A DNA stretch of 64,000 nucleotides from Candidatus Kaiserbacteria bacterium (GCA_016217965.1 JACRFI010000015.1:16366-80365), one strand, 5' to 3'; shown: positions 745 to 63,840, counted from the stretch's first letter. Notes: generated by a model not told the origin, from the letters alone. A program made the numbers and translations.

Positions 745-877
745 CCGAATAACCAAATTCCAAGAGACAATAACCAAACAAGTTTCAATAACCAACTTTG
801 AAGTTTGTGATTTGAATATTGTCTGGAGCTTGTGTCTTGGTTATTGGTTATTATTACTGTCATTATGTTACACTCGA
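745..877. repeat. 'AATAACCAA x3 ... TTGGTTATT x2' hairpin element upstream of the MGMT gene
   Basis: Three direct AATAACCAA (747, 768, 786) and two inverted TTGGTTATT (837, 844); shares 15-mer ACAATAACCAAACAA with 29752..29836. Confidence 0.6.
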
Positions 878-5543: not shown

Positions 5544-7457
5544 ATGACCCTTAACGAGATCCGCTCGAAATATCTCGCTTTTTTTAAGGCCCAGGGCCAC
5601 ACAATTATTCCCTCAGCTCCTGTCGTTCCTGAGAACGATCCGACGACACTATTTACCGGCAGCGGCATGCAGCCATTGGTGCCGTATCTGCTAGGGAAAG
5701 ATCATCCGTCCGGAAAGCGGCTTGTGAATTCCCAAAAAAGTTTCCGCGCGATGGATATCGAAGAAGTGGGAGACAACAGGCATACGACATTTTTTGAAAT
5801 GCTCGGGAATTGGTCTTTGGGTGATTATTTCAAGAGAGAGCAATTACCGTGGTTCTTCGAATTTCTCACAAAGGTGGTAGGGCTCGATCCTGCAAGATTG
5901 TATGTGACCGTCTTTCTCGGTGATGAGAAAAATAACGTGCCGCGCGATACAGACTCTGCTGAAATATGGAAAAACATATTCTCCAGCGTCGGCATAGATG
6001 CAAAAGACGTATTAATTGGCTCAGAAGAGGAGGGATACAAGAAGGGAATGCAAGGCGGGCGCATCTTTTTCTACGATGCGAAGAAAAATTGGTGGAGCCG
6101 TGCCGGAGTTCCGGAAAATATGCCGGCAGGGGAGCCGGGTGGACCTGATTCTGAGGTGTTTTACGACTTCGGGACGCCTCACGATGAGAAGTTCGGAAAC
6201 AACTGCCACCCAAATTGCGATTGCGGCAGATTCCTCGAGATAGGAAATTCTGTCTTCATGCAGTACATAAAGAAGGATGACGGCTCCTTCGGGCTCTTAC
6301 CAAAACAAAATGTTGATTTTGGAGGCGGACTTGAGCGCATCTCGGCTGCATCAATAGGGAACTCGGACGTTTTCAGAACGGATGTATTCGAGGAGGCAAT
6401 ACTGCTTCTTGAAAAATTCTCAGAAAAAACGTATGGCGATGCGAAATTCACGCGTTCATTCAGGATAATTCTGGACCACATTCGGGCAGCAACGTTTATG
6501 ATCGCGGACGGAGTGCGGCCGTCGAACACCGAGAGAGGGTATGTACTTCGCCGGCTTATTCGGCGCGCCGTACAGCATGCGAACAAGCTGGGGGTGGCGG
6601 AAGATCCGACGGACGATACGATACTAGTACGGTGTGCGACGCTTTTTACGGAAGAATACGGAGATGCCTATCCGGAGTTGAACGACGAGGTGGTGTGGAG
6701 TGCCATCAAAGAAGAGATAGCAAAAGAAGAAAAACAATTCCAACAAACACTCCAGAAAGGCCTTCGTGAATTTGAGAAAATGATCTCCGGAGATATCACG
6801 GGAGAGCAGGCCTATCTTCTTTTTACATCGTATGGGTTTCCATTCGAAATGACGATGGAACTCGCGAAAGAAAGGAACGTCTCGATTGATGAAGCCGGTT
6901 TCAGGGAGTACATGAAAAGACATCAGGAGCTTTCTCGCGCAGGCGCCGAGCAGAAATTCAAAGGCGGGTTAGCGGATCATTCGGAAAAAACGACGCGGCT
7001 TCATACCGCGCACCACCTTCTTCTCAAAGCATTGCAACTTGTTCTAGGCGTCCATGTAAAGCAGCGTGGTTCGAACATAACACAAGAGCGATTGCGCATA
7101 GATTTCTCGCATGGAGAGAAGATGACCAAGGAGCAGATTGCAGAAGTGGAGAGGATAGTTAACAAGAAAATACACGAAGAGCTTCCAGTGACTCGCAGCA
7201 TACTCCCCAAAGAAAAAGCGGAAAGCTTGGGTGCGGAGCATGAGTTCGGCGCGAAATATCCTGACATGGTCTCGGTATATTCCGTCGGTCCCGCCGACGC
7301 TTCTGAATCGGATCCGCAATTTGATAAAGCGTTTTCGATAGAATTTTGTGGTGGACCACATGTTGAGAACACGAGCGAACTCGCGGGGACATTCAAGATA
7401 CAGAAGGAAGAAGCTGTCGCCTCCGGCATCCGCCGCATCAAAGCTATCCTTCAGTAG
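5544..7457 (+). CDS. alaS: alanine--tRNA ligase, short form lacking C-Ala domain
   Basis: N-terminal AlaRS catalytic motifs (FTGSGMQP, FFEMLGNWS), editing-domain HxxxH (HTAHHLL) and CGGPH; 637 aa only. Confidence 0.85.
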   Translation: MTLNEIRSKYLAFFKAQGHTIIPSAPVVPENDPTTLFTGSGMQPLVPYLLGKDHPSGKRLVNSQKSFRAMDIEEVGDNRHTTFFEMLGNWSLGDYFKREQLPWFFEFLTKVVGLDPARLYVTVFLGDEKNNVPRDTDSAEIWKNIFSSVGIDAKDVLIGSEEEGYKKGMQGGRIFFYDAKKNWWSRAGVPENMPAGEPGGPDSEVFYDFGTPHDEKFGNNCHPNCDCGRFLEIGNSVFMQYIKKDDGSFGLLPKQNVDFGGGLERISAASIGNSDVFRTDVFEEAILLLEKFSEKTYGDAKFTRSFRIILDHIRAATFMIADGVRPSNTERGYVLRRLIRRAVQHANKLGVAEDPTDDTILVRCATLFTEEYGDAYPELNDEVVWSAIKEEIAKEEKQFQQTLQKGLREFEKMISGDITGEQAYLLFTSYGFPFEMTMELAKERNVSIDEAGFREYMKRHQELSRAGAEQKFKGGLADHSEKTTRLHTAHHLLLKALQLVLGVHVKQRGSNITQERLRIDFSHGEKMTKEQIAEVERIVNKKIHEELPVTRSILPKEKAESLGAEHEFGAKYPDMVSVYSVGPADASESDPQFDKAFSIEFCGGPHVENTSELAGTFKIQKEEAVASGIRRIKAILQ

Positions 7458-7482
7458 CCACGAATTCGCGAGCCGCGAAGGC

Positions 7483-7569
7483 TTAAGTATTTTGCCGTCT
7501 TCGCAGGCCTGACGAGGCCGAGACCGAGCGCTGGCGCAGCAGCGCCAGATAGCGACGGCAAAATACTTA
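7483..7569. repeat. ~87-bp palindromic element with 16-bp perfect terminal inverted repeats (copy A)
   Basis: TAAGTATTTTGCCGTC...GACGGCAAAATACTTA termini plus internal palindrome CTGGCGCAGCAGCGCCAG; near-identical inverted copy at 37424..37508. Confidence 0.8.
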
Positions 7570-7612
7570 TGCCGAGAAAAGGCTTGCGAATTTATGCGCT
7601 ATACTACCCACA

Positions 7613-8785
7613 ATGCTGTCGTTCTTTGGGCGAAGCACAAAAGGGAAGCCAGTGGTTATAGCAGATGTCGAGGGCAGCTCGGCAGCTGTTGCTGTTGCGC
7701 TTCTACACGGCGACAAACAGGTGGAGATACTGGTGAGTGAACGGCAGGCAATTCCTAATTCTGGCTCCGACCCTTCTACGGTTTCGGCCTCTATCCCAAC
7801 AGTACTGAAAGAAGTATCCGAGCGGGTCCTTAAAAAATACACTGAGCAAGATGGGATAAAAAAATACGGCGCTCCCAAAGCGGTGCACGCAACACTTGGT
7901 TCTCCATGGGCGCACGCAAGGACGGCGCGGGCAGAAACGTCTTTTCCGGAGGCGCGAAGTATCAGCAAGCAGGCCATCCAAGCCTTGGCTCAAGAAGCGA
8001 TAAAACAGCCCTCCGACCTGCAACAACCGATCCTTGAAACGAACGTCATGCGCGTGCACATCAATGGCTACCCAACAGCAAAACCAGTGGGAAAAAAAGG
8101 AAAAGAACTTGCTGCCACTATTTTCCAAAGCGACGCGGCACAGCAGCCAAAGCAAGCAATTGAATCCGCACTGTCTGCGCAATTTCCGGGAAGGGCCATA
8201 GATGTCCGATCTGGGGTGCGCGCGCTCATGAGTGTCATCAACGAGCGTGCGCACGAGCATAATTATTTTGTTTTGCTCGTTGGGAGTGAATCGACTGAGT
8301 GCATTGCTATCCGGAAGGAGGCAATCGCAGAACATGCGACAGTGCCAGAAGGAATGAATACCATTATCAGGCGCATAGCAGGAGAGAAAGGCCTGCCGGA
8401 AGAAAAGACAACTCTTCTTCGCATGCTGGCCTCTGACACGTGCTCTGCAGAAGAGTGCGAAGTCTTAAAGCAAGGGTTGGCTAAAGCGGAGCCCGACCTC
8501 ACAAAACTCTTCGGGGACGTGTTCGGAAAACTTGCTGCGTTGCGCCGCTTGCCTAACACATGCATTCTTTTTGCACACGCAGACCTCTCGCCGTGGCTTG
8601 AACATTTTTTTAACCGCCTTGATTTTTCTCAATTCACAGTAACGACGCAGCCTTTTGTCGTGCAACCCGTTACCCAGGAACATATGCAAAGTTTCGTTTC
8701 GTGGCAGGCCGGCGTGCGGCAGGATACGGGAATAGGCATCGCTGCGGCATTCGCAAGCCTTGGTATGAAAGGTGATGATTCGTGA
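7613..8785 (+). CDS. hypothetical protein, possibly actin-like (ASKHA) ATPase
   Basis: Weak phosphate-1/2-like segments (VVIADVEGSS, VLLVGSESTECI); 390 aa. Confidence 0.35.
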   Translation: MLSFFGRSTKGKPVVIADVEGSSAAVAVALLHGDKQVEILVSERQAIPNSGSDPSTVSASIPTVLKEVSERVLKKYTEQDGIKKYGAPKAVHATLGSPWAHARTARAETSFPEARSISKQAIQALAQEAIKQPSDLQQPILETNVMRVHINGYPTAKPVGKKGKELAATIFQSDAAQQPKQAIESALSAQFPGRAIDVRSGVRALMSVINERAHEHNYFVLLVGSESTECIAIRKEAIAEHATVPEGMNTIIRRIAGEKGLPEEKTTLLRMLASDTCSAEECEVLKQGLAKAEPDLTKLFGDVFGKLAALRRLPNTCILFAHADLSPWLEHFFNRLDFSQFTVTTQPFVVQPVTQEHMQSFVSWQAGVRQDTGIGIAAAFASLGMKGDDS

Positions 8786-29021: not shown

Positions 29022-29755
29022 TGACGGCGTTCTCTTTAGAAACGAGCGGCTATACGGGCCCACTGGACGCGCTGTTGACGCTCATCGAAGACAGAAAGCT
29101 CTCGATATCGGAAGTCTCGCTTGCTGAAGTAACTGACGCGTACCTTTCGTATGTGGAAAGCCTTCCCCAGCTCCCTTTGGGCGAGACGGCTCAATTCATT
29201 CTCATTGCGTCCACGCTTCTACTCATAAAATCTCGCACCCTTCTTCCTAGCGTTGACCTAACGGAAGAGGAGACTCAAAGCATAGAAGAGCTCGAACGCC
29301 GCCTCGCACGGTATGCGCTTATAAGAAAGTGTGCAAAAGTGCTGCGCAACAAGTGGGGCAGTGCGCCGCTTCGATTTCCGAAGCGCCAACCGTCTCCCGA
29401 ATACGCGGCAGGCAGGGAGGCGTCATTCAATCCTGGGGAAACGACGCTTGCTCTACTGTTGCGTGCTGCACAATCACTCCTCAGCACTCTGCCAAAGCCG
29501 GAGAAGCTTGCAGAGGCGACAGTCGCACCGGTATTGAAACTTGAAGAAGTTATCAGCAATCTCCGCACCAGGCTTGCCTCATCGATACGCACCAAATGGA
29601 GCGAACTAACTAATACATCTGGTAAGTACGAGATGATAGTCCATTTTCTTGCAATATTGGAACTGGTTCGAAGTGGCTCTGTTAGTGCCACACAAGAGAA
29701 ACTTTTCAGTGATATCCTATTGGAAACAGAGGCCCTGGGGGCACCACGTTACTAA
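29021..29755 (+). CDS. scpA: segregation and condensation protein A (kleisin)
   Basis: N-terminal YTGPLDALLTLIEDRKL motif typical of ScpA; 244 aa. Confidence 0.7.
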   Translation: MTAFSLETSGYTGPLDALLTLIEDRKLSISEVSLAEVTDAYLSYVESLPQLPLGETAQFILIASTLLLIKSRTLLPSVDLTEEETQSIEELERRLARYALIRKCAKVLRNKWGSAPLRFPKRQPSPEYAAGREASFNPGETTLALLLRAAQSLLSTLPKPEKLAEATVAPVLKLEEVISNLRTRLASSIRTKWSELTNTSGKYEMIVHFLAILELVRSGSVSATQEKLFSDILLETEALGAPRY

Positions 29756-29836
29756 TTACCAAGATACAAGATACAATAACCAAACAAAATACAAAGAATT
29801 CCTCGTTTGTGTGCTGTTTCTTGGTGATTGGTTATT
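29752..29836. repeat. 'AATAACCAA...TTGGTTATT' hairpin element immediately 5' of scpB
   Basis: Shares ACAATAACCAAACAA and TTGTGT...CTTGGT(T/G)ATTGGTTATTA with element at 745..877; arms are reverse complements; ends at scpB ATG. Confidence 0.6.
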
Positions 29837-30415
29837 ATGAACCCACTTGATCTCGCGTCAAAAATACAAGCGCTTCTTTTTGCCGAAGGGGACTCCTTGG
29901 CTATTAAAAAAATTGCGCAGCTGCTCGAGTCCGAACTGCCGGCTGTAGAAGCCGCTTTGATGGAACTTTCGGAGCGCTTGAAAGGCGGACCTCTCGCGCT
30001 CATTCTGACGGATAAGGAAGCGGCGCTCGCAGTATCTTCGGATGCCAAGGATACCGTTTCTTCTGCGAGAGCAAAACTTGAGGAGCGCGAAATAGGCGAC
30101 GCTGGGCTCGAGGTTTTGACGATATTGCTATACGAAGGCCCCTCGACTCGCGCCGATATTGATTACATAAGGGGGGTAAATTCTTCTTCTACGCTGCGTA
30201 CGCTTCTCCTGCGCGGCCTTGTTGAACGCAGCGGCAACCCTGAGGACGGCAGAGAATACATCTACCGCCCGACAGTCGAGCTCCTCGCTCACCTTGGAAG
30301 CCCGTCTCAGAAAGATTTGCCAGAGTATGATACAATCGCGCGCGAACTCTCAGCATTCAAGGCATCGAACGATGTCTTTAAAGAGAACAACAATGGAACC
30401 GGAGAAGGAATTTGA
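29837..30415 (+). CDS. scpB: segregation and condensation protein B
   Basis: IQALLFAEGDSLAIKKIAQLL and winged-helix pair typical of ScpB. Confidence 0.75.
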   Translation: MNPLDLASKIQALLFAEGDSLAIKKIAQLLESELPAVEAALMELSERLKGGPLALILTDKEAALAVSSDAKDTVSSARAKLEEREIGDAGLEVLTILLYEGPSTRADIDYIRGVNSSSTLRTLLLRGLVERSGNPEDGREYIYRPTVELLAHLGSPSQKDLPEYDTIARELSAFKASNDVFKENNNGTGEGI

Positions 30416-31355: not shown

Positions 31356-32432
31356 ATGGCAATGATGCTCTCAGATACAGTGCGTATTTTAGTGCCAGCC
31401 GCTGTAACATTCGTTGTCGGGATGGCGCTGACGCCTATCCTCACTCACTACTTGTACGCGTATAAGGTTTGGAAGAAAACTCCGGGCAAAAATGGATTGG
31501 ATGGCAAAAAGGCTGAGGAATTCAACCGAATCCACGAATTGAATGAAGTCCGCGCGCCTCGAATGGGTGGCATCGTCGTGTGGGGAAGTGTACTTATCAC
31601 GATACTTGGGTTCGCCGCCGCCGCAGTTTTTTTTGACAACCCCATCATAGATAGTCTCGCGTACCTTTCACGCAGCCAAACATGGGTGCCACTTGCGGCG
31701 CTCATTATTGGAGCTGCTGCGGGATTTATTGATGATCTTCTCGTAGTAAAGCCGGGTGGAGAGGGGTTGCAGCTTTCAATCAGGCTTTCCGTCGTTGTCG
31801 CGCTTTCTCTTATTATTGGCACATGGTTCTTTACGAAGCTTGATGTCACGGCTATCAATGTGCCTTTTAGCTCTCCGATTGAACTTGGCTGGCTTATCGT
31901 TCCGTTCTTTGTCGCACTTTCACTGGGACTGTATGCATCCGGTGTCATTGATGGCATAGATGGGCTATCGGGAGGTGTATTCATGTCGGTATTCGCTGGC
32001 TACGCCGTCATTGCTTTCGCGCAGAACCAAATCGACATAGCAGCCTTTACTGCCTCCATTGTCGGCGGCCTTCTTGCCTTCTTGTGGTTCAATATTCCGC
32101 CGGCACGGTTCTATATGAGTGATACAGGCACGATGGCGCTAACATTGTGTCTTGCCGTTATCGTGTTTATGACCGACAGCCTTGGGGAAGGCGTCGGAGT
32201 ATTTGCGCTGCCGGTTATTGGAGCACTTCTTGTTGTGACTGTCGCGTCGAATGTCATTCAAGTTGTATCAAAACGCTTTTTTGGAAGGAAGGTATTCCGC
32301 GTTGCGCCGCTCCACCATCATTTTGAGGCCATAGGCTGGCCCGCGTACAAAGTTGCGATGAGGTATTGGATCCTTTCGATAGTGTTTGCTTTTTTAGGCG
32401 TTATCCTGGCATTGTCGGCGATTGTGCCATGA
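31356..32432 (+). CDS. mraY: phospho-N-acetylmuramoyl-pentapeptide transferase
   Basis: 10 TM helices, DDLLVV and VAPLHHHFE MraY motifs. Confidence 0.9.
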   Translation: MAMMLSDTVRILVPAAVTFVVGMALTPILTHYLYAYKVWKKTPGKNGLDGKKAEEFNRIHELNEVRAPRMGGIVVWGSVLITILGFAAAAVFFDNPIIDSLAYLSRSQTWVPLAALIIGAAAGFIDDLLVVKPGGEGLQLSIRLSVVVALSLIIGTWFFTKLDVTAINVPFSSPIELGWLIVPFFVALSLGLYASGVIDGIDGLSGGVFMSVFAGYAVIAFAQNQIDIAAFTASIVGGLLAFLWFNIPPARFYMSDTGTMALTLCLAVIVFMTDSLGEGVGVFALPVIGALLVVTVASNVIQVVSKRFFGRKVFRVAPLHHHFEAIGWPAYKVAMRYWILSIVFAFLGVILALSAIVP

Positions 32433-32517
32433 TTCGCTTCATCGCCGCAGGGTATTTTGACGGAGGAATGGCTCATACCGTCAAAATACCCTGCGGCGAC
32501 TCCGCTATTATTGGAAC

Positions 32518-34800: not shown

Positions 34801-36138
34801 ATGTCCATACGTGTTCGTTTCCCCCCAAGTCCCACTGGCTACTGCCACGTTGGCACTGCACGAATGGCAATAGTGAACTATTTGTTCGCAAAGAAAAATG
34901 GCGGGCAGATAGTATTTCGCAGTGAAGATACGGATAAGGAGCGTAGCAAAAAAGAATTTGAAGCTGACATTATCGAGCAGCTTCACTGGCTGGGGCTCGG
35001 TTGGGATGAGTTTTATCGCCAATCGGAGCGCACGGAGATATATAGAAAGGCAATCCATGACCTGATAGGGGAGGGTAAGGCGTATGTTTCCGAAGAAGAG
35101 AGCAAGAAAGAGCCCGGCAAAATGGCGCAAGTCATTCGCCTAAAGAATCCGGGTCGGACCATCACTTTTACAGATGTCGTACGCGGCGACATTACGTTCG
35201 ACACGACGGAGCTTGGCGATTTCGCGATAGCGCGAGCAGAGGATGACCCGCTGTATCATCTCGCGGTTGTCGTGGACGACGCGGACATGGGCATCACACA
35301 TGTCATTCGCGGCGAAGACCATATTTCTAACACCCCGCGACAAATCCTCATCCAGGAAGCGCTGGGTGCATCGCGGCCCGTCTATGCGCACTACCCGTTG
35401 CATCTTTCAGCTGACCGCTCCAAGCTCTCAAAGCGAAAGGGCGATGTAGCAGTTCGAAGTTACCGCGAGAAAGGATTCCTTTCGCAAGCGCTGCTGAATT
35501 ATCTTGCGGCATTGGGATGGACCCCACCGTCTGGGAAAGAGATACTTTCGCTTACGGAAATGATTGCGGAATTCAAACTTGAAGATCTACACAAAAGCGG
35601 AGCTGTTTTCGATACTGAAAAACTCCGATGGTTCAACAGAGAGTACCTTGTTCAACTGAGCGACGATGAATTTACGCCTATCGCAATGGAATGGCTTAAA
35701 AAATCTCACACACACCTCTCTTGGAATGAATCGATCGCCGCGAAGATCATTCCCAGCCTGCGAGAACGCATATCCGTCTGGAGTGATATCGAGACGCTTG
35801 CCTCCGAGGGTGATCTTGATTATTTCTTTACCGCGCCAACATTGTACGGGAAGTCGATACCGATGAAGAAAATTGATATCGAGACAACTCAGCGGCACTT
35901 ACAGCATATCGTTTCGGTTCTCCAGAATATGCCGGCGCAATTTAGTGCGGAAGAGATAAAGAGCGCACTATGGGATTACGCCACTACAGAGGGCAGGGGA
36001 GCTGTCTTGTGGCCTCTCAGGTACGTACTCAGCGGCAAGGACAAATCGCCCGACCCGTTCTTTATCGCGTCAGTTATTGGTAAGGATGAGGCACTGGAGC
36101 GCGTCAACACTGGTATATCGGCGCTTCTTTCATCATGA
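34801..36138 (+). CDS. gltX: glutamate--tRNA ligase
   Basis: RFPPSPTGYCHVGTAR (HIGH variant) and KLSKR; 445 aa. Confidence 0.9.
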   Translation: MSIRVRFPPSPTGYCHVGTARMAIVNYLFAKKNGGQIVFRSEDTDKERSKKEFEADIIEQLHWLGLGWDEFYRQSERTEIYRKAIHDLIGEGKAYVSEEESKKEPGKMAQVIRLKNPGRTITFTDVVRGDITFDTTELGDFAIARAEDDPLYHLAVVVDDADMGITHVIRGEDHISNTPRQILIQEALGASRPVYAHYPLHLSADRSKLSKRKGDVAVRSYREKGFLSQALLNYLAALGWTPPSGKEILSLTEMIAEFKLEDLHKSGAVFDTEKLRWFNREYLVQLSDDEFTPIAMEWLKKSHTHLSWNESIAAKIIPSLRERISVWSDIETLASEGDLDYFFTAPTLYGKSIPMKKIDIETTQRHLQHIVSVLQNMPAQFSAEEIKSALWDYATTEGRGAVLWPLRYVLSGKDKSPDPFFIASVIGKDEALERVNTGISALLSS

Positions 36139-37397
36139 TGTTTCGGTACGCTGTATATTTTTTTGCGGTAGCTCTCGCCGTAACCCCATCATTGGTTGTG
36201 TCTCAAACGCCGCAGGAACTGCAAAACCAGATCTCTGTGCATAGCGCGCAAATAGAGGCATTGAACAAAGAGATAGCAGCCTTTGAAAAACAGCTTCAAG
36301 AAGTCGGGGCCAAAAAACAAACCCTCCAGAATACGGTCGCAACACTGGATCTGCAACGTAAGCAGCTTTCTGCAAAAATTAATGTCACGAAGAATAATAT
36401 CGCGACCACTGAACTCGAAATAAAACGCCTGGACGGCTCTATAGGCGACAAGGAAACTGCAATAGAGAAGGACGAGATGGGGCTTGCACAGGCGATACAA
36501 TCGCTTGATCAGGCGGAGACGGGCTCGCTTATCGAACATGTCCTCAATAACGATTCCGTTGCCGAATTTTGGGATGCTGTCGAATCGAACCAGGTATTTC
36601 AGAGTGCGGTCAATGAACACATAGGCTCTCTCCAATTAATAAAGCAAGAGCTTACGGTATCGCGCGACGAGTCTGATAAAAAGCGCGTAGAGTTAGAAAA
36701 ACAGCGTCAGACGCTCGCTTCACAGCAAGGCTCTCTCGATGTGACGAGAAGGGAACAGAACAGCCTGCTTGCACAGACGAAGTCGCAAGAGGCAAATTAT
36801 CAGACGCTCTTGGAAACGAAACGTGCCGCGAAGCAGGCATTCGAACAGGCACTGAATGAACTCGAATCCAAATTGCAGTACACACTGGACCCGTCCCATA
36901 TTCCTTCAGCGGGAAAAGGAATTCTACGCTGGCCACTCGACTCAGTGCATGTCACGCAGTATTTCGGCAACACCGAATTTGCGAGGAGCGGCGCGTACAG
37001 CGGCAAAGGGCATAATGGTGTCGATTTTCGCGCCGCTGTAGGCACTCCCGTTAAAGCGGCGCTTTCTGGAACAGTAATAGGTAGCGGCAACTCTGATTCT
37101 GTAAAGGGGTGCTATTCGTACGGGAGATGGCTCCTCATCAAGCATGGAAATGGTATTTCGACGCTGTATGCGCACCTATCACAAGCGAACGTGTCACAGG
37201 GCCAGCAAGTGACCACAGGGCAGGTCATAGGCTATTCGGGGAACACTGGCTACGCTACAGGCCCACACCTTCACTTCAGCGTCTATGCCTCGGACGCAGT
37301 GCAGGTACGGCAGCTTGGTACCAACACTCCGTGCGGCAAAGCGGTAATACCTGTTTCCGCCCTCGGAGGGTATTTAAATCCGATGGACTATTTGTAG
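36135..37397 (+). CDS. M23 family metallopeptidase with N-terminal coiled coil (EnvC-like)
   Basis: Signal peptide, long coiled coil, C-terminal GHNGVDFRAAVGTPVKAALSGTVI...HLHFSV LytM motifs. Confidence 0.8.
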   Translation: MMFRYAVYFFAVALAVTPSLVVSQTPQELQNQISVHSAQIEALNKEIAAFEKQLQEVGAKKQTLQNTVATLDLQRKQLSAKINVTKNNIATTELEIKRLDGSIGDKETAIEKDEMGLAQAIQSLDQAETGSLIEHVLNNDSVAEFWDAVESNQVFQSAVNEHIGSLQLIKQELTVSRDESDKKRVELEKQRQTLASQQGSLDVTRREQNSLLAQTKSQEANYQTLLETKRAAKQAFEQALNELESKLQYTLDPSHIPSAGKGILRWPLDSVHVTQYFGNTEFARSGAYSGKGHNGVDFRAAVGTPVKAALSGTVIGSGNSDSVKGCYSYGRWLLIKHGNGISTLYAHLSQANVSQGQQVTTGQVIGYSGNTGYATGPHLHFSVYASDAVQVRQLGTNTPCGKAVIPVSALGGYLNPMDYL

Positions 37398-37423
37398 ATC
37401 GCGCGAAACTCCCTCTCGGCATA

Positions 37424-37508
37424 AATTTTTTGCCGTCGCTATCTGGCGCTGCTGCGCCAGCGCTCGGTCTCGGCCCCGTCGGGCCTGCGAAGACGGCAAA
37501 AAACTTAC
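37424..37508. repeat. palindromic TIR element copy B (inverted relative to copy A)
   Basis: Reverse complement matches 7483..7569 with ~2 core mismatches over ~75 bp; immediately downstream of the M23 peptidase gene. Confidence 0.8.
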
Positions 37509-38206
37509 GCCTTCGAAGAGTTTCGTTTTGTCTGAGGCTGATTGAGCCATTCAGTAATTTTTATTGCTTTCAATTCCACAATAGACGCTTTTCGCAAATG
37601 TCTTATGGCCGCAGCTGGCGCGATGTCGTAATACTTTGTCTTCGACAATCTTTCCATAAGCCAATCGAGCGATTGCTCGGTCGTTATCCATTTTTCAGGA
37701 GGGAATCGAGAAAGATCGAATGGCGCTGAGTAGCCGCGGAGGGATTTTCTTCCGTCCCACATGTAATATTCGTGGAAATAGGACATCGCGAGTTCGCGAG
37801 GCGTTTTGTAAACCGCGTCACGATATCTGAGGACCGCGTGATTTGTTTTGCTGATTGCTCCCCATAGGCCGCTTTCTTTAAATAGCGCGACTGCGTGATC
37901 TTCGTCATCATACGCTGTCGCGAAATCCATAAGCAGCGGTTTTTTTCCGTGGTACGCCAGCGCTGCGGCAGCAAATACAGCGCCTTCAAAACAATGCGCC
38001 TTCCCTACTTTTAACACCAAAAGAGGGGAGTGGTTGGTTTCTCCGCCTACCTCAAAATTGATCGGTACAGTGTCCAGAAAATTCTGGATCTTTCGTGGGG
38101 AAGAGAGGCGCGAAAATATTTTATGCATGGCCGGAGGCAACGAGGCGCGTACAGAATCCGCGTACATAGGACAATTATAGCGATTAAAAAAGAGACCGAT
38201 CTGCAA
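37505..38206 (-). CDS. hypothetical protein
   Basis: 233-aa ORF, no confident motif. Confidence 0.4.
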   Translation of the reverse strand: MQIGLFFNRYNCPMYADSVRASLPPAMHKIFSRLSSPRKIQNFLDTVPINFEVGGETNHSPLLVLKVGKAHCFEGAVFAAAALAYHGKKPLLMDFATAYDDEDHAVALFKESGLWGAISKTNHAVLRYRDAVYKTPRELAMSYFHEYYMWDGRKSLRGYSAPFDLSRFPPEKWITTEQSLDWLMERLSKTKYYDIAPAAAIRHLRKASIVELKAIKITEWLNQPQTKRNSSKA

Positions 38207-38318: not shown

Positions 38319-39281
38319 ATGGCAAATAAGGACAAAAGCACCAATTCCGTCCCTCATGCCGACGATTTCCTCTTACATATCCAAGCCAATAATTATTCTG
38401 AGGAGACTCTGTACAACTACGAGCGAGATCTTGAAGTATTCTCGAATTTTCTCAAGAACGAGTTGGGCTCCTTCCCTTTCGAGAAGGTTGATAAGCGTAC
38501 TGTTGAACACTTTAAGGCGTATCTGAATTCCAGCGATCGGCAGACGGCTAAGCAGCAGGTGGCTGAACATAAGCTATCGAGTGGCACGATAAACAGGAAT
38601 CTAACGTCATTGCGGCGATATCTTGCGTATTTAATCGATATGGATCTTCCGTGCCCACTCGAGCCGAGCGCCATCAAATTACTTAGACGCGAGAAAAAAC
38701 ATCCCCAAGTATCCGAATTGAACGAGCTCATTCGGCTTATCGAGTCTCCCATGAAATTCGAGAAAGATAAGTCTGTTGCGCTTCGCAATCGTGCGGCGCT
38801 CGAGACCTTATTTGCGAGCGGTATGCGTATTTCGGAGCTGATCAACCTCAAAAGGAATCAATTGGATAACACCGGTCGGATCTTTATTCAGGGGAAAGGA
38901 AAGAAACAGCGATTCATCTACCTGACTGAGCGAGCGAAGAAACACATCGCTGAATACTTAACGGAACGAACGGATGACTTCCCCTACCTCTTCATCGCGA
39001 AGAGCGGCTCCAATGCTGCTGACAAGACTAAGCATATTTCTGCGAATTATTTGCAGATGAAAATAAAGAAATATCGCGAGCTTCTTGGTATCAACGTTCC
39101 TACGAGTGCGCACTCTTTGAGACACGGCTTCGCCACGTATCTCGCCGAAGAAGGCGCTAACCCGGCAGCGATACAAGTACTTCTTGGCCACGAGTCATTG
39201 GATACGACCACGCGATATGTGCATGCCTCGGACAGATATGCAGAAGACTCGCACCGTAAATTTCATCCTTTAAAAGAATAA
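38319..39281 (+). CDS. tyrosine site-specific recombinase (XerC/XerD family)
   Basis: N-terminal core-binding domain; catalytic box I (ALRNRAALETLFASGMRISEL) and box II (HSLRHGFATYLAEEGANPAAIQVLLGHESLDTTTRYVH). Confidence 0.8.
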   Translation: MANKDKSTNSVPHADDFLLHIQANNYSEETLYNYERDLEVFSNFLKNELGSFPFEKVDKRTVEHFKAYLNSSDRQTAKQQVAEHKLSSGTINRNLTSLRRYLAYLIDMDLPCPLEPSAIKLLRREKKHPQVSELNELIRLIESPMKFEKDKSVALRNRAALETLFASGMRISELINLKRNQLDNTGRIFIQGKGKKQRFIYLTERAKKHIAEYLTERTDDFPYLFIAKSGSNAADKTKHISANYLQMKIKKYRELLGINVPTSAHSLRHGFATYLAEEGANPAAIQVLLGHESLDTTTRYVHASDRYAEDSHRKFHPLKE

Positions 39282-39285
39282 TGTT

Positions 39286-39918
39286 ATGCGAAAATCATGG
39301 ACAGTCGGAGAGATAAAGAGGGGCTTTGAGCGTTTTTTAAATACACATGGCCGACTCCCGAAGGCACTGGAGATCGATGAAATAGCGTACCTACCCACTT
39401 CCCGCTTTATCCAATACAGATTCGGTGGCCTGGAGAAATTACGTCACGCATTAGGTTATGGTGATACACATTTTGGCAAAGGCAGATTTAGGAGCGTAAT
39501 AGCGTCACGGGTAAACATCAGAGGTCGTGCGGAAGAATTGACGTTGCAGAACATTTTGCATGAACGTTTTGGTGAAATGTTCGTGCATTCTGAAAAGATA
39601 TTCGATAAGTCCAAAAACCGTGTTGATTTCTTCGTATATTCGCCAGACGGAGACTTCGGGGTCGATGTATTCTACACGGAATCTATGCATTTCCTTCAGT
39701 CCATCATCAATATCAAGCGCAAGAAATACCAGAATTTCACTGCAGATCTATTCTTAGCGGTCGCTAACAAAAGCTTCTCTCAGTCCGTGCTCGACAAGTA
39801 CGCTGCAAGTAAGGTCAAACCACTTCCGCATCGCGCCAAATTAGTAACTCTCGGTACATTCCTAGCGTATATCCAGCGCAAATTGGCCTACGATATACCT
39901 GGTGTAAGACAGGGTTAA
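39286..39918 (+). CDS. hypothetical protein
   Basis: 210-aa ORF immediately after recombinase; no motif. Confidence 0.4.
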   Translation: MRKSWTVGEIKRGFERFLNTHGRLPKALEIDEIAYLPTSRFIQYRFGGLEKLRHALGYGDTHFGKGRFRSVIASRVNIRGRAEELTLQNILHERFGEMFVHSEKIFDKSKNRVDFFVYSPDGDFGVDVFYTESMHFLQSIINIKRKKYQNFTADLFLAVANKSFSQSVLDKYAASKVKPLPHRAKLVTLGTFLAYIQRKLAYDIPGVRQG

Positions 39919-47663: not shown

Positions 47664-47692
47664 GCCCGGGCACTTTCCTATAGTGCTTGGGC
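47664..47692. terminator. shared stem-loop between convergent cysS and leuS
   Basis: GCCCGGGCACT / AGTGCTTGGGC 11-bp stem (two G-U pairs) with 7-nt loop; no clear U-tract; 3' arm overlaps the leuS C-terminal codons. Confidence 0.35.
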
Positions 47693-50605
47693 AATGACGA
47701 GGTTTACGATTCGTCCCTTCACGTAAATCACTTTTAGTACCTGCCTACCCTCTAGCCATTTTGCCCCAGCTTCGATCGCTTTCGTTTTCGCACTCTCTTC
47801 ACTCTCTTCAGGAGAAATAGATATTTGAGTGCGAGTCTTGCCATTGATTTGAACAGCAACTGATACCGTGTCAGCCACTAGTTTCCCTGCTTTAAATGCT
47901 GGCCATTTTTCAAGATGAATTGATTTCTTGTGGCCGAGCTCGGCCCATAGTTCGTCCGCGATATGTGGCGCGAAAGGCGATAAAAGCCGAAGTACTATTT
48001 CGAATTGGGCCTTTGAAATTCCGGCGCGCTCGGCTTCGTTCAGGAACGACATCATCTGTGCTATTGCGGTATTGAATTTCAAAGCCGGAATGTCTTCTGA
48101 GACTTTCTTGATCGTCTTGTGAAGAGAGATTTCGATCTCTTCGCCTCCTTTTCCTATCTTTTCGCGTAGTCGCCACACGCGCTCTAAAAAGCGCCGGACT
48201 CCTACAACACCATCCGGGTTCCATGGATACGTCGAGACCTCGTTGTACGGACCCACGAACGCGAGGTACATGCGCACCGTATCAGCGCCAAGCTGTGCAA
48301 CTACAGAGTCCGGGTCGATGACATTTCCTCTCGATTTCGACATCTTCTGGCCATCAGGCCCCAGAATGAGCGAACGGTTCATGCGCCGCGTGTACGGTTC
48401 AGGATCCATTGCCAGCTTGAGGTCGAAAAGTGCTTTCTGCCAAAACCGCGAATACAGGACGTGCATTGTGGTGTGTTCGGCGCCGCCCGAGTATAGATTG
48501 ATAGGCATCCACGCTTTTTGCTTTTTTGGTTCTGAGAACAGTTTCTTATTTTTCGGATCAATGTAGCGGAGGAAATACCAAGAAGAATCGACGAAGGTGT
48601 CGAGTGTATCTGTCTCGCGTTCTGCATGCCCTTTGCATTTCGGACACTTCACATTCACCCACTTGCGTACCTTTGCAAGTGGCGAGCGGCCGCTTCCATC
48701 CGGCAGGTAGTCTTTGACCTCCGGCAACTTCACGGGAAGATCTTTATCTGGCACTGCAACTTGGCCGCAAGTTTTGCAGTGGATTATCGGAATGGGAACT
48801 CCCCAGTACCTCTGGCGGGAAACTATCCAGTCACGCAGTTTGTACGTCTTCTTCTGCGTGCCGAACTCTGTAGTCATTTTTGATCGCGCCTCTTTGCTGT
48901 CTATTCCGGAGAAGTTCGCCGAATTCACAAGCCTTCCCTCTCCTGTATATGTACCTGTCTCAATTTTTCCTGATGAAATAACGTCACGGATCGGCAAATT
49001 AAACTTCTTTGCAAATTCGAAATCACGTTCATCGTGAGCAGGTACCGCCATGATGGCGCCAGTGCCGTAGTGCGCCAGCACATAATCGGCGACGTATATT
49101 GGTATTTTCTCGCCCGTTGCAGGATTTATCGCCTCGACTCCTCCCAATCTGACCCCGGTCTTTTCTTTCTGTTCAGCCATCCTCTCTAATTCTGTCTTCT
49201 TCGCCGCCTGATCAACGTACGCTTGCACTTCTGCGTTGTTTTGCAGAACTGTTTTATGGCTGAGTGCGAGCGTTACCCATTGATGCTCGGGTGCAAGCAC
49301 AAGATACGTGGCACCATAGAGCGTATCAGCCCGCGTCGTAAATACACGAATTGTAGGACGAATCCACATAAGAAAATCAGGCTCTCTGTCGGCAGTAAAG
49401 TGCTCTTGGATCGCGTTCGTCTCAACTAGTTGCGCGTCTATAGTTTTAGCGAGCTCTTGTAAATAGGGAGCACGCGCTTTTTCCTGAAGATCGGAAAGAA
49501 CCAAACGGGAGTCTGTGTTCTGCTTGATTTTCTGCACATCGAGCTTCCAATTGAAATCTTTCCAAAACGGCCGTCGAATAGCCGTAGGAAAATTTGGGTC
49601 TACTGCTGGTGCTATGACAACAAGTCGTGCAATTTTGCGCTTCAATTTTTCCGCAACCTTCATCGCGACAAGTCCGCCAAGGCTATGCCCAACAACAATC
49701 GTATTTTCATCGTAGGTTGTAGCTGATAGCGCCGTTGCAACTTGTTCCGATTCTTTTGGGGTATCAGTGTTGGGCAACGCGGGAATGACCACTTCATGCC
49801 CCAATTCTTCTAACTTCTTTTTGACCCACTGCCAACGTGGTCGATTCGGATTACTTTTATAGCCGTGCAAAAGCACAAACTTGTATTTCTTTCCAAGATC
49901 AAGACCAAAATCAATCTCGGCGCCTTCGCTGCGACCTATCCAATTGCGTTGGGATTCTTTTATTTGCTCTGGCCAGTCCAGTTCTTTCAGGTCATCGACA
50001 AGCCGGTCAGCATATTTTGTGATCCTCAGATTCCACTGCAGCATCTGTTTCTGGATCACCTCCGTCTTACAGCGCTCGCAGCGCCCATCCACAACCTGCT
50101 CGTTCGCAAGCACAGTTTTGCACGACGGGCACCAGTTCACTGCCGTTTCCTTCCGATATGCCAGTCCATTCTTGAAGAATTGGAGAAACTGCCACTGAGT
50201 CCATTTGTAATATTCGGGATCACACGTGATGACTTCCCGAGACCAATCGAAGGATGCTCCCATGGACGCCATCTGTTTTTTCATGTAGGCGATATTGCCA
50301 TACGTCCACTTTCTGGGGTTCAGTTTGTTTTTTATCGCGGCATTCTCTGCCGGAAGCCCAAATGCATCGAAGCCGATCGGATACAACACATTTTTTCCTT
50401 GCATCCGCAAATGGCGCGTCAAAATGTCAGGCACCGAGAATGCGTACCAGTGGCCAACGTGGAGATTTCCCGAAGGGTATGGGAATTCTGTAAGAAGGTA
50501 GTAATTTTTCTTTCCTTTTACCGTATCTGCAGTCTTGTAGAGCTTCGCTTTCGCCCATTTTTGTTGCCATTTCTTTTCTATTTTGCGATGGTCATACTTT
50601 CGCAT
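47678..50605 (-). CDS. leuS: leucine--tRNA ligase with an inserted alpha/beta-hydrolase (RBBP9/YdeN-like serine hydrolase) domain
   Basis: HVGH and KMSKS class-I motifs, CP1 editing domain (TTRADTLYGATY...), anticodon-binding C-terminus; residues ~234-420 form an extra GHSLGG hydrolase domain; 975 aa. Confidence 0.85.
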   Translation of the reverse strand: MRKYDHRKIEKKWQQKWAKAKLYKTADTVKGKKNYYLLTEFPYPSGNLHVGHWYAFSVPDILTRHLRMQGKNVLYPIGFDAFGLPAENAAIKNKLNPRKWTYGNIAYMKKQMASMGASFDWSREVITCDPEYYKWTQWQFLQFFKNGLAYRKETAVNWCPSCKTVLANEQVVDGRCERCKTEVIQKQMLQWNLRITKYADRLVDDLKELDWPEQIKESQRNWIGRSEGAEIDFGLDLGKKYKFVLLHGYKSNPNRPRWQWVKKKLEELGHEVVIPALPNTDTPKESEQVATALSATTYDENTIVVGHSLGGLVAMKVAEKLKRKIARLVVIAPAVDPNFPTAIRRPFWKDFNWKLDVQKIKQNTDSRLVLSDLQEKARAPYLQELAKTIDAQLVETNAIQEHFTADREPDFLMWIRPTIRVFTTRADTLYGATYLVLAPEHQWVTLALSHKTVLQNNAEVQAYVDQAAKKTELERMAEQKEKTGVRLGGVEAINPATGEKIPIYVADYVLAHYGTGAIMAVPAHDERDFEFAKKFNLPIRDVISSGKIETGTYTGEGRLVNSANFSGIDSKEARSKMTTEFGTQKKTYKLRDWIVSRQRYWGVPIPIIHCKTCGQVAVPDKDLPVKLPEVKDYLPDGSGRSPLAKVRKWVNVKCPKCKGHAERETDTLDTFVDSSWYFLRYIDPKNKKLFSEPKKQKAWMPINLYSGGAEHTTMHVLYSRFWQKALFDLKLAMDPEPYTRRMNRSLILGPDGQKMSKSRGNVIDPDSVVAQLGADTVRMYLAFVGPYNEVSTYPWNPDGVVGVRRFLERVWRLREKIGKGGEEIEISLHKTIKKVSEDIPALKFNTAIAQMMSFLNEAERAGISKAQFEIVLRLLSPFAPHIADELWAELGHKKSIHLEKWPAFKAGKLVADTVSVAVQINGKTRTQISISPEESEESAKTKAIEAGAKWLEGRQVLKVIYVKGRIVNLVIAQAL

Positions 50606-63405: not shown

Positions 63406-63840
63406 CTAGAACATCCAGATGGCGATCGTCGCCGCGGCAAACCAGCTGAAGACAGATACTGCTCCGCTCACCATGAGCGACAGCTTTTCGTGCCCCGTAA
63501 GTGCCGCAAACGGTTTCGTGAGTGCCAAGTTCATCAAGCGGCCGATGAGTATCGCATTCACCACCAATATCCCGACGAACAGCAGCTTCACGTCGAACCA
63601 CAGGTTCGTGAGCAGGAAAAGCCGCATCGGGTAGAACAAGTAGGCTCCGCTTACGATGAGCGCAAGAAGGCCAAGCCAGATGAGCGCAAGAAGGCCAAGC
63701 CAGATGAGCGCGTGGTACGTGAGAAGCGTCTTTTTTTCGAGTGTCGTTTTCTTCCCTCGAAGCCAAGCGAACGCATCTTTATCAGCGATCGCAGTCACAC
63801 CCAGAACAAACCCAAATGACAGAATATGAAGTACTAGCAT
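63406..63840 (-). CDS. hypothetical membrane protein containing an in-frame 24-nt tandem duplication
   Basis: 4 TM helices; duplicated LIWLGLLA segment encoded by the repeat at 63657..63712. Confidence 0.4.
   Translation of the reverse strand: MLVLHILSFGFVLGVTAIADKDAFAWLRGKKTTLEKKTLLTYHALIWLGLLALIWLGLLALIVSGAYLFYPMRLFLLTNLWFDVKLLFVGILVVNAILIGRLMNLALTKPFAALTGHEKLSLMVSGAVSVFSWFAAATIAIWMF
63657..63712. repeat. 24-nt perfect tandem repeat (2 full copies plus partial) inside a CDS
   Basis: TGAGCGCAAGAAGGCCAAGCCAGA x2 then TGAGCGCG. Confidence 0.8.

What the first reader, a model, noticed from the sequence alone, without database searches (positions are those of the whole stretch)
7483..7569. 87-bp palindromic element with 16-bp perfect terminal inverted repeats, copy A (downstream of alaS)
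TAAGTATTTTGCCGTC...GACGGCAAAATACTTA flanks a GC-rich core that itself contains the palindrome CTGGCGCAGCAGCGCCAG. A second copy lies at 37424..37508 in inverted orientation, with ~2 core mismatches over ~75 bp. Both copies sit within 30 nt of a stop codon (alaS; M23 peptidase). This is a dispersed, highly structured intergenic repeat. It could be a MITE- or REP-like element, or a family of strong terminator hairpins. Its conservation at 64-kb spacing suggests mobility or selection.
Basis: seen in the sequence. Interest (0 to 1): 0.5.

Follow-up and report, generated by a model that had tools for sequence, protein, structure and literature searches.

The report
Structured mobile intergenic repeat in Kaiserbacteria
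The two palindromic sequences are recently duplicated copies of an unannotated, roughly 110-base intergenic repeat that folds into a conserved three-armed structure, is scattered through the tiny genomes of one group of candidate-phyla-radiation bacteria, and behaves like a mobile element that settles at the ends of genes.

Summary
The repeat is 102 nt (7476-7577 on +; 37414-37515, equivalent strand is -), 94% identical, and the copies lie 30 kb apart, not 64 kb. All six differences preserve base pairing.

It is not a two-copy oddity. One genome scan, one metagenome scan and a covariance model found 75 distinct copies, all in Kaiserbacteria-like Patescibacteria contigs. There were none in viral, phage or plasmid collections, no Rfam match and nothing in the literature.

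All copies share a long, variable outer helix with a conserved G/A-rich internal loop near its base. This helix carries a nearly invariant three-way junction with two short hairpins (loops GACG and ANNA). Of paired cells, 97-98% are canonical and 27-28 pairs show compensatory changes.

G-U pairs outnumber A-C pairs and the internal loops are purine-rich, so the fold is selected on one strand (+ for copy A, - for copy B).

Both window sites are empty in relatives with 76-79% identical flanking proteins. A and B are each other's closest relatives, and assemblies break at the element. It is therefore mobile.

Removing the 102 nt in silico leaves terminator-like hairpins after alaS and after the M23 peptidase gene.

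I read it as a structured REP/ERIC-like mobile repeat sitting inside terminators. What the conserved junction does is unresolved, and a new functional RNA class is not excluded.

The parts
7476..7577 (+). Copy A, the whole duplicated unit: base motif CGAA...GAGA, outer helix P1 and the three-way-junction core.
   Evidence: 102-nt, 94% match to 37414-37515. Covariance model R1 gives 121 bits, E = 5e-32. Fold -61.3 kcal/mol, z = -7.2.
7480..7499 (+). Copy A, P1 5' arm. The inner CCG is 7495-7497.
   Evidence: Pairs with 7554-7573 (I19). The P1 columns covary across 75 copies.
7506..7519 (+). Copy A, hairpin 1: GGCCU-GACG-AGGCC.
   Evidence: All 5 pairs have compensatory changes in the family. 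The GAC of the loop is invariant. Copy B has C-G where copy A has U-A.
7520..7530 (+). Copy A, conserved junction strand GAGACCGAGCG. G7526 covaries with C7499.
   Evidence: C-G in 64 copies and G-C in 8 at alignment columns 40/68. Mutual-information scan.
7531..7548 (+). Copy A, hairpin 2: CUGGCGC-AGCA-GCGCCAG.
   Evidence: All 7 pairs have compensatory changes. Loop consensus is ANNA.
7554..7573 (+). Copy A, P1 3' arm.
   Evidence: I19.
7463..7474 (+). Left arm of the outer helix P0 around copy A (AATTCGCGAGCC). It is local sequence, not part of the duplicated unit.
   Evidence: Pairs with 7581-7592. The whole region folds at -80.3 kcal/mol. With the element removed, it forms a 12-bp hairpin with a GAAA loop followed by UUUAU (-18.9 kcal/mol, z = -4.2).
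7581..7592 (+). Right arm of P0 around copy A (GGCTTGCGAATT), followed by TAT.
7600..7605 (+). TATACT -10-like box, 7 nt before the ATG (7613) of the next gene. That gene therefore has its own start signal after the element.
   Evidence: Read from the sequence. The same TATACT-N7-ATG arrangement occurs in L078 and L079, which lack the element, and after copies in L010, L024 and L070.
37414..37515 (-). Copy B, the whole duplicated unit. The structured strand is the - strand.
   Evidence: I1. R1 gives 115 bits. Fold -63.1 kcal/mol on -, against -51.0 on +.
37505..37507 (-). TAA stop codon of the 233-aa ORF (37505-38206, -), supplied by copy B.
   Evidence: Orthologues end 4-5 residues after the TEW motif. 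The window protein runs 13 residues further, into P0 and the element.
37404..37411 (+). Left arm of the outer helix P0 around copy B (CGAAACTC).
   Evidence: Pairs with 37518-37525 (I5).
37518..37534 (+). Right arm of P0 around copy B (GAGTTTCG), followed by TTTTGTCTG. On the + strand this is a terminator-like tail for the M23 peptidase gene.
   Evidence: With the element removed in silico, the flanks fold as GCGAAACUC-CCAA-GAGUUUCG followed by UUUUGU.

Best explanation
Copies A and B belong to a family of non-coding, structured, dispersed repeats of about 105-125 nt. The family has so far been found only in a Kaiserbacteria-like clade of Patescibacteria.

On one particular strand each copy folds into three parts:
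- a long outer helix (P1) whose sequence varies between copies but whose pairing is kept;
- a conserved G/A-rich internal loop near the base of P1;
- an almost invariant three-way junction carrying two short hairpins.

The unit (base motif + P1 + core) is copied as a whole to new intergenic sites. No gene of its own is present, so copying depends on a factor supplied in trans that has not been identified. The unit settles at the ends of genes and can persist there for a long time, with pairing kept by compensatory change.

In this genome A and B are products of a recent duplication. Each sits in the loop of a local outer helix (P0) with a U-rich tail. It is therefore transcribed as part of the 3' end of alaS (copy A), and of both the 233-aa gene and the M23 peptidase gene (copy B). 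There it most likely serves as the very stable hairpin of a terminator or 3'-end protector.

The conserved junction is inferred to be the recognition surface for the factor that copies or processes the element.

Status of each step:
- Shown: the family exists, the fold, the strand bias, presence/absence at both window sites, and the recent common origin of A and B.
- Inferred: the mode of copying, the terminator or stabiliser role, and the role of the junction.
For: Family and fold
- An exact 20-mer scan of species-representative genomes found 7 true copies, all in Patescibacteria MAGs.
- A degenerate pattern found 64 metagenome loci.
- Model R1 then found 76 matches, 75 of them distinct, including divergent subfamilies.
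- On that alignment 97-98% of cells form canonical pairs and 27-28 pairs have changes on both sides. None of 500 shuffles reached this, and slid controls gave 29-47% pairing.

Strand
- G-U against A-C counts are 22:8 in the outer stem and 9:1 in the inner helices, and 22:8 in canonical copies.
- The conserved internal loops are purine-rich on that strand.

Mobility
- The alaS-to-next-gene spacer is 28 nt in L078 and 51 nt in L079. There is no model hit in about 50 kb of syntenic sequence from three relatives.
- The M23 gene and the convergent gene overlap by 4 nt in L082 and in L083/L084.
- A and B are 93% identical to each other, against 82% or less to any other copy. In the variable P1 they are 86% identical, against a median of 47% for all pairs.
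- Other non-orthologous pairs also share P1.
- The pheS/GT2 spacer is filled by two different subfamilies in some genomes and empty in L013 and L021.
- Short-read contigs from the source sample end inside the copies, and they reveal a third, diverged copy about 7.2 kb upstream of the window.

No independent gene
- No conserved promoter lies upstream.
- One pair of copies lies head to head, 3 nt apart.

Terminator context
- Removing the 102 nt in silico leaves a 12-bp GAAA-loop hairpin plus UUUAU after alaS.
- It leaves a 9-bp hairpin plus UUUUGU after the M23 gene.
Against: - No transposase, reverse transcriptase or other mobilising gene was found next to any copy.
- The Y1_Tnp genes in L063 and L077 are flanked by a different palindrome. 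The integrase next to copy B accompanies no other copy.
- No target-site duplication was found.
- The centre is conserved and the ends are variable. This is the reverse of classical MITEs and looks more like a functional RNA.
- One pair (C7499-G7526 in copy A) covaries outside the simple helices, which hints at a compact three-dimensional fold.
- The outer helices P0 are absent from the relatives examined. 'Insertion into a pre-existing terminator' is therefore not demonstrated; P0 could have arisen with or after the insertion.
- Most canonical copies elsewhere lie antisense to their neighbouring genes. The right-hand neighbour is convergent in 32 cases against 13, and the flanks have negative GC skew on the structured strand in 35 of 45 copies. 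A terminator role does not explain this.
- Those canonical copies have no U tract after them.
- Retrieval used sequence patterns, so invariance at the pattern positions is partly by construction.
Confidence: 0.5

Rival explanations
1. It is a new class of functional, compactly folded RNA whose conserved three-way junction does the work. Candidate roles are a self-cleaving or RNase-directed processing signal, or the binding site of a conserved protein. Under this view the many copies exist because the host uses them between genes, and spread by duplication is secondary.
For: - The strand-specific G-U excess is 31:9 overall.
- Purine-rich internal loops (tandem G/A) are conserved at two places.
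- The junction strands GAGAYYGAGCG and AYA and the loops GACG and ANNA are almost invariant, while all helices covary.
- Columns 40/68 covary outside the nested helices.
- Divergent subfamilies keep the architecture with quite different helix sequences.
- Orthologous copies differ by compensatory pairs, for example L024 against L070.
- The strand lengths around the junction (1, 11 and 3 nt) have the same layout as a type III hammerhead.
Against: - There is no Rfam match even at E = 10.
- The hammerhead core (CUGANGA, GAA, A-U closing pair) is absent.
- There is no conserved promoter, and one head-to-head pair lies 3 nt apart.
- Most copies are antisense to the surrounding genes, so it is unclear how the structured strand would be transcribed.
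- Close relatives do without the copy at both window sites and show no model hit in about 50 kb of the alaS-syntenic region.
Confidence: 0.3
2. The copies are ordinary intrinsic terminators that resemble each other through common descent or convergence. They have no mobility and no special fold.
For: - Both copies lie at gene 3' ends and are extremely stable hairpins.
- U-rich tails follow the outer helices.
Against: - The 102-nt unit is not followed by a U tract. The simple terminator scan reported no terminator at copy B. At copy A it reported only a small alternative hairpin (GAGCC/GGCTT, 7470-7484), not the element.
- Seventy-five copies share near-invariant unpaired nucleotides, which a terminator does not need.
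- Some copies lie between divergent gene starts: L010, L024, L041 and L070.
- Most copies are antisense to the gene that ends next to them.
Confidence: 0.05
3. It is a folded single-strand DNA recombination site (attC-like or Xer/IMEX-like) used by the tyrosine recombinase encoded 0.8 kb from copy B.
For: - A Phage_integrase/Xer-like gene lies at 38319-39281.
- Copy B lies where gene orientation and GC skew change sign.
- The fold is strand-specific, and G-T and sheared G-A pairs are also stable in DNA.
- As with attC sites, the element abuts stop codons and its structured strand is often antisense to the gene.
Against: - The recombinase has no homologue near any of the other copies in about 70 loci.
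- L080 has the recombinase but carries a different, AT-rich palindrome at that junction.
- There are no attC R'/R'' core sites.
- The neighbouring genes are housekeeping genes, not cassettes.
Confidence: 0.05
4. It is an assembly or chimera artefact that duplicated one sequence.
For: Short-read contigs break inside the copies.
Against: - The copies differ at six positions in a structure-preserving way.
- They have unrelated flanks.
- They belong to a family seen in many independent assemblies.
Confidence: 0.01

Closest known systems
REP / REPIN elements with RAYT (Y1, HUH) transposases
   Same: - Extragenic, palindromic and multi-copy.
- Often located at gene 3' ends.
- Long-lived in a lineage, with occasional duplication.
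- Copies occur as inverted doublets (L031).
- RAYT-like Y1_Tnp genes exist in related contigs.
   Different: - REPs are 20-40-nt simple hairpins with a conserved GTAG-type head. This element is 105-125 nt with a three-way junction.
- The Y1_Tnp genes seen here are flanked by another palindrome (CAAGTCTGACTT...), not by this element.
ERIC / IRU (enterobacterial repetitive intergenic consensus)
   Same: - About 100-130-nt imperfect palindrome in transcribed intergenic regions.
- Found in either orientation.
- The centre is conserved between species while locations differ.
- Copy number varies greatly between genomes.
- Thought to act on mRNA as a hairpin. This comparison rests on my own knowledge of the ERIC literature.
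   Different: - No similarity to ERIC was tested here, and none is expected.
- Different host phylum.
- ERIC is a long bulged hairpin, not a three-way junction.
- ERIC has been described with TA duplications; none is seen here.
Correia elements (Neisseria) and other bacterial MITEs (RUP, BOX, RPE)
   Same: - Non-autonomous, about 100-150 nt, with terminal inverted repeats.
- Presence/absence differences between strains.
- Co-transcribed with neighbouring genes.
- Can add processing or terminator functions.
   Different: - Classical MITEs have conserved terminal repeats matching an IS, plus a target-site duplication.
- Here the ends vary, the centre is invariant, and no duplication or parent IS was found.
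Small self-cleaving ribozymes spread as repeats (for example type III hammerhead)
   Same: - Three helices around a junction with strand lengths in the order short, long, 3 nt.
- Covarying helices with invariant junction nucleotides.
- Many copies in varied genetic contexts.
   Different: - None of the hammerhead core nucleotides is present.
- No Rfam ribozyme model matches.
- No cleavage has been shown.

Membership tests
Classical MITE | Terminal inverted repeats that are conserved among copies and match those of an autonomous IS. | tested here: not met
   The ends pair within each copy but are the least conserved part. Median P1 identity is 47%, whereas the core is nearly invariant. No IS with matching ends occurs in any locus.
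Classical MITE | Target-site duplication flanking each copy. | tested here: not met
   There is no direct repeat at the homology boundaries 7476/7577 and 37414/37515. Canonical copies have AA on the left and GC/CC on the right. The AAGGCTT that occurs twice near copy A lies partly inside the element and partly in the P0 arm.
Classical MITE | Presence/absence differences at orthologous sites and near-identical copies within a genome. | tested here: met
   Sites are empty in L078, L079, L082, L083/84, L013 and L021. A and B are 93-94% identical.
REP/REPIN-RAYT system | A short (20-40 nt) imperfect palindrome with a conserved 5' tetranucleotide head. | tested here: not met
   The unit is 102-125 nt with two internal hairpins.
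REP/REPIN-RAYT system | A cognate Y1 (PF01797) transposase gene flanked by the repeats. | tested here: not met
   The Y1_Tnp genes in L077 (20112-20834) and L063 (7398-8048) are flanked by a different palindrome. None occurs in the window. Whole genomes were not available.
Intrinsic (Rho-independent) terminator | A G+C-rich hairpin immediately followed by a U tract on the transcribed strand. | tested here: inconclusive
   The 102-nt unit has no U tract. The outer helices P0 do: UUUAU after copy A, and UUUUGU after copy B on the + strand. Canonical copies elsewhere lack both.
Any Rfam 15 family (including hammerhead, twister, pistol, hatchet, SRP, 6S, 5S, riboswitches) | A score at or near the family's gathering threshold. 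| tested here: not met
   There were no hits at gathering threshold in the window. No relevant hit appeared at E up to 10 around copy A or at E up to 1 in three loci with seven copies. No tRNA was found.
Integron attC site | R''/R' core sites (RYYYAAC / GTTRRRY), cassette ORFs and an adjacent IntI integrase. | tested here: not met
   No such core sites occur in the consensus. Neighbours are groEL, rnc, smc, pheS, murJ and alaS. The recombinase near copy B is not linked to other copies.
Free-standing small RNA gene | Its own promoter and terminator at conserved distances. | tested here: not met
   The 5' flanks aligned on GCGAG show no conserved -10/-35. One head-to-head pair is 3 nt apart. Expression itself is not testable with these tools.

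The most novel reading that the evidence does not exclude
The element is a previously undescribed class of compactly folded RNA specific to candidate-phyla-radiation bacteria. Its invariant three-way junction would carry a biochemical activity, such as self-cleavage or directing a conserved RNase or RNA-binding protein. That activity would punctuate transcripts in these very compact genomes, and the element would propagate as a mobile unit. This would make it a bacterial counterpart of ribozyme-bearing or tRNA-like repeats.
Probability: 0.2. Interest if true: 0.85.

Novelty: new variant of a known kind. Interest (0 to 1): 0.6.

Why it matters
Patescibacteria have some of the smallest and most tightly packed bacterial genomes. 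A repeat that occupies more than 100 nt per copy and reaches three copies within 4-15 kb in some contigs therefore needs explaining.

The family is absent from Rfam and from the searchable literature. It has unusually clean covariation and combines features that usually occur separately:
- mobility, shown by empty sites and recent duplicates;
- a strand-specific, junction-centred fold with invariant unpaired nucleotides, as in functional RNAs.

Practical consequences:
- It explains contig breaks in assemblies of these organisms.
- It gives a ready covariance model for annotating them.

Biological consequences:
- It offers a handle on how transcription units are ended or processed in an uncultivated lineage.
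- It is a candidate substrate for an unknown mobilising or RNA-processing enzyme.

Tried and rejected
- **Rfam.** Searched at gathering and permissive thresholds; nothing relevant. tRNA/tmRNA scan found none.
- **Hammerhead and other ribozyme cores, SRP, 5S, 6S, group II domain V, guanidine-II loops.** Compared by eye. The defining nucleotides are absent, so these were rejected.
- **Viral contigs, phage and plasmid collections.** No match.
- **Literature.** Seven searches, including literal sequence strings. Nothing relevant.
- **Independent promoter.** No sigma-70-like site near either window copy. No conserved box in aligned 5' flanks.
- **Association with a mobilising enzyme.** The Y1_Tnp genes found are tied to another palindrome. 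The integrase beside copy B is not linked to other copies. Ten further window ORFs contain no transposase.
- **'Conserved across several classes'.** This was my first reading, based on MAG names (Kaiserbacteria, Paceibacterota, Saccharibacteria). I rejected it because flanking proteins of all loci are 60-96% identical. For example, SMC of the 'Saccharibacteria' MAG is 82.5% identical to that of L007. This is one clade.
- **'P1 is the stem of the target hairpin rather than part of the element'.** Rejected because non-orthologous copies share P1.
- **First G-U/A-C count.** It treated the two pair types asymmetrically. I redid it symmetrically.
- **Junction pairing.** Two models (P2 UCGC/GCGA, or arm extensions with C40-G68) both fit the counts. 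I could not choose between them.

Full report
**1. The observation**

The perfect 16-nt arms are at 7484-7499 and 7554-7569. They extend to 20 nt with one mismatch (I19). The inner palindrome is at 7531-7548.

The second copy is inverted and matches over 102 nt at 94% (7476-7577 against 37414-37515, I1). Two probes of 20-21 nt occur only at these two places and in none of 100 shuffles.

The copies differ at six positions, and every difference keeps a pair: U-A to C-G in the first inner hairpin, and A-U to U-A, G-C to G-U and U-U to G-U in the outer stem.

The folds are far more stable than shuffled sequence: -61.3 kcal/mol with z = -7.2 for copy A on +, and -63.1 kcal/mol with z = -6.3 for copy B on -. 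The copies are 29.9 kb apart, not 64 kb.

**2. Setting in the window**

The window comes from a Candidatus Kaiserbacteria MAG. Its AlaRS is identical to an NCBI protein of that name.

Copy A lies between alaS (5544-7457, +) and a 390-aa gene (7613-8785, +). That gene is preceded by TATACT-N7-ATG.

Copy B lies between the M23 peptidase gene (36135-37397, +) and a convergent 233-aa ORF (37505-38206, -). The TAA stop of that ORF lies inside the element. A Xer-like tyrosine recombinase gene follows at 38319-39281.

The genome is compact. The 155-nt and 107-nt spacers holding the copies are larger than most of the 68 intergenic gaps, though several are longer.

**3. It is a family**

An exact 20-mer from the 3' half, scanned against one genome per species, gave 11 loci. 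Seven are true homologues, all in Patescibacteria MAGs. The other four are chance matches.

A degenerate pattern from the 5' half gave 64 metagenome loci and no viral contigs. A covariance model built from 46 copies found only the two copies in the window. In the loci it found 76 matches, 75 of them distinct, including divergent copies the patterns had missed.

Some loci hold three copies within 4-15 kb (L040, L031, L065). One pair lies head to head, 3 nt apart (L031).

Short-read contigs from the source sample end inside copies A and B. One of them begins inside a third, diverged copy about 7.2 kb upstream of the window.

Rfam gives nothing. Phage and plasmid collections give nothing. Seven literature searches give nothing.

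I first took the MAG names to mean conservation across several classes. However, the flanking proteins of the loci are 60-96% identical to each other. For example, SMC of a 'Saccharibacteria' MAG is 82.5% identical to that of L007. The sample therefore comes from one Kaiserbacteria-like clade.

**4. The fold**

All copies share the following parts:
- an outer helix P1, about 17 bp without gaps on average, which varies in sequence;
- a conserved motif at its base, 5'-GCGAG-N ... CGAGC-3' in most copies and CGAA ... GAGA in the window copies, which can form tandem G-A pairs;
- a nearly invariant core, CCG-NNU-UCGC-A-[hairpin 1, loop GACG]-GAGAYYGAGCG-[hairpin 2, loop ANNA]-AYA-GCGA-CGG.

On the 75-sequence alignment 97-98% of cells are canonical pairs and 27-28 pairs have changes on both sides. 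None of 500 shuffles reached these values. Sliding the partners by 1-3 columns drops pairing to 29-47%.

Two junction models fit. One pairs UCGC with GCGA. The other extends the two arms and pairs the C after CCGU with the G of YYGAGCG. That last pair covaries cleanly (C-G 64, G-C 8). Divergent copies add a C-G to U-A change in the same arm. I could not decide between the models; both may form.

One caveat applies. Positions fixed by my search patterns are invariant partly by construction. However, each half was left free in one of the two scans, and the model-only hits keep the architecture.

**5. Which strand**

With a symmetric count, G-U pairs outnumber A-C oppositions 22:8 in the outer stem and 9:1 in the inner helices. 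The ratio is 22:8 in canonical copies and 12:9 in the rest.

The conserved internal loops are purine-rich on the same strand; on the other strand they would be pyrimidine mismatches. The selected strand is therefore + for copy A and - for copy B.

**6. Mobility**

In relatives whose AlaRS is 79% and 76% identical, the alaS-to-next-gene spacer is 28 nt and 51 nt. The model finds no copy in about 50 kb of syntenic sequence.

In relatives whose M23 peptidase is 76% identical, the two convergent genes overlap by 4 nt. A 79% relative has a different, AT-rich palindrome at that junction.

The window's 233-aa protein has a C-terminal extension that reads into the inserted sequence.

A and B are each other's closest relatives: 93% identical overall, against 82% or less to any other copy. 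In the variable P1 they are 86% identical, against a median of 47%.

Other non-orthologous pairs also share P1, so P1 travels with the core. The pheS/GT2 spacer is occupied by canonical copies in L010, L024 and L070, by a window-like copy in L041, and is empty in L013 and L021.

Some positions recur across genomes, with compensatory differences between the copies. Examples are after rnc, after groEL, and on both sides of a small divIC-like gene. Copies can therefore persist for a long time.

**7. What it does here**

Each window copy is enclosed by a further local helix (P0) that is not part of the duplicated unit. With P0, copy A folds at -80.3 kcal/mol.

Removing the 102 nt in silico leaves AAUUCGCGAGCC-GAAA-GGCUUGCGAAUU followed by UAU after alaS. 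On the + strand it leaves GCGAAACUC-CCAA-GAGUUUCG followed by UUUUGU after the M23 gene.

Both copies thus sit in the loops of terminator-like hairpins and must be transcribed with the genes that end there. The best-supported local role is as part of a very stable terminator or 3'-end protecting hairpin. This is inference. The relatives examined lack these outer helices, so I cannot show that the terminators came first.

**8. What remains unexplained**

Elsewhere, canonical copies are mostly antisense to their neighbours. The gene on the 3' side is convergent in 32 cases against 13, with its stop codon 0-7 nt away. The flanks have negative GC skew on the structured strand in 35 of 45 copies.

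Four copies lie between divergent gene starts. There is no conserved promoter.

One reading is that the structured strand is active in RNA, for example by terminating or being cleaved. Sense copies would then survive only at the ends of transcription units, as in this window, while antisense copies are tolerated inside operons. I could not test this.

No mobilising enzyme was found. The RAYT-like genes in L063 and L077 are flanked by another palindrome. The recombinase near copy B is not linked to other copies.

**9. Comparison and verdict**

The element works like REP, ERIC or Correia-type intergenic repeats, but it fails the defining tests for each:
- against classical MITEs, it has no target-site duplication and no conserved ends;
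- against REPs, it is not a short hairpin and has no cognate RAYT.

The unit alone is not an intrinsic terminator, and it matches no Rfam family. Its conserved, strand-specific three-way junction is unusual for a mobile repeat and leaves open that it is a new functional RNA.

I rate it a new variant of a known kind, with interest 0.6. I put a 0.2 probability on the more novel reading, a new RNA class with its own activity.

Noticed in passing
window 32441-32499: A perfect 22-bp hairpin (TCGCCGCAGGGTATTTTGACGG / CCGTCAAAATACCCTGCGGCGA) with a 14-nt loop fills the spacer between the ORF ending at 32432 and the FtsW-family gene starting at 32518. Its inner stem (TATTTTGACGG) resembles the inner P1 of the element (TATTTTGCCG). 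It scores only 12 bits with the model and has no core.
   Followed up: partly
window 748-854 and 29754-29838: A second dispersed repeat, AT-rich and itself palindromic (AATAACCAA...CAATAACCAAAC / TCTTGGTTATTGGTTATTAT). It has two copies 29 kb apart in intergenic gaps.
   Followed up: partly
L080 4267-4388 (relative of the window; junction of the M23 peptidase gene and the convergent gene): At the site where the window carries copy B, this relative carries a different, AT-rich 122-nt palindromic spacer (TTTACAATTTTCAA ... TTGAAAATTGTAAA). Two other relatives have no spacer at all. This junction seems to be a repeated landing place for hairpin elements.
   Followed up: partly
L077 20058-20870 and L063 7340-8139: Y1_Tnp (PF01797, IS200/RAYT-like) genes sit between housekeeping genes; in L077 the gene lies between grpE and dnaK. 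Each is flanked on both sides by the same palindrome: GTGCAAGTCTGACTTGCAC in L077, and a 38-nt perfect palindrome ACACAAGTCTGACTTCCGT|ACGGAAGTCAGACTTGTGT in L063. This is a REP/RAYT-style arrangement in Patescibacteria and is unrelated to the element studied.
   Followed up: partly
window 47678-50605 (-): The leucyl-tRNA synthetase ORF (975 aa) carries an alpha/beta-hydrolase-like segment (residues about 243-418) inserted within the catalytic domain, ahead of the editing domain.
   Followed up: no
window 38319-39918: The Xer-like tyrosine recombinase gene is absent from the syntenic region of two relatives (L082, L083) and present in a third (L080). No homologue of the following 210-aa ORF was found in any of these loci. 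The recombinase lies where gene orientation and cumulative GC skew change sign, at about 38-40 kb, possibly the replication terminus.
   Followed up: partly
window 63655-63702: A perfect tandem duplication of a 24-nt unit (GATGAGCGCAAGAAGGCCAAGCCA) lies inside an ORF near the end of the window.
   Followed up: no
window 7600-7615; L078 2346-2363; L010, L024, L070 downstream of the element: Several genes start 7 nt after a TATACT box, often preceded by TGN, with no Shine-Dalgarno sequence. This suggests leaderless transcripts are common in this clade.
   Followed up: no
L063 9066-9177: A further 24-bp inverted repeat separated by 64 nt (GGAGGCGGGAATCTTCCGCTGAAC / GTTCATCGGAAAATTCCCGCCTCC) has the same overall size as the element. 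The model did not detect it.
   Followed up: no
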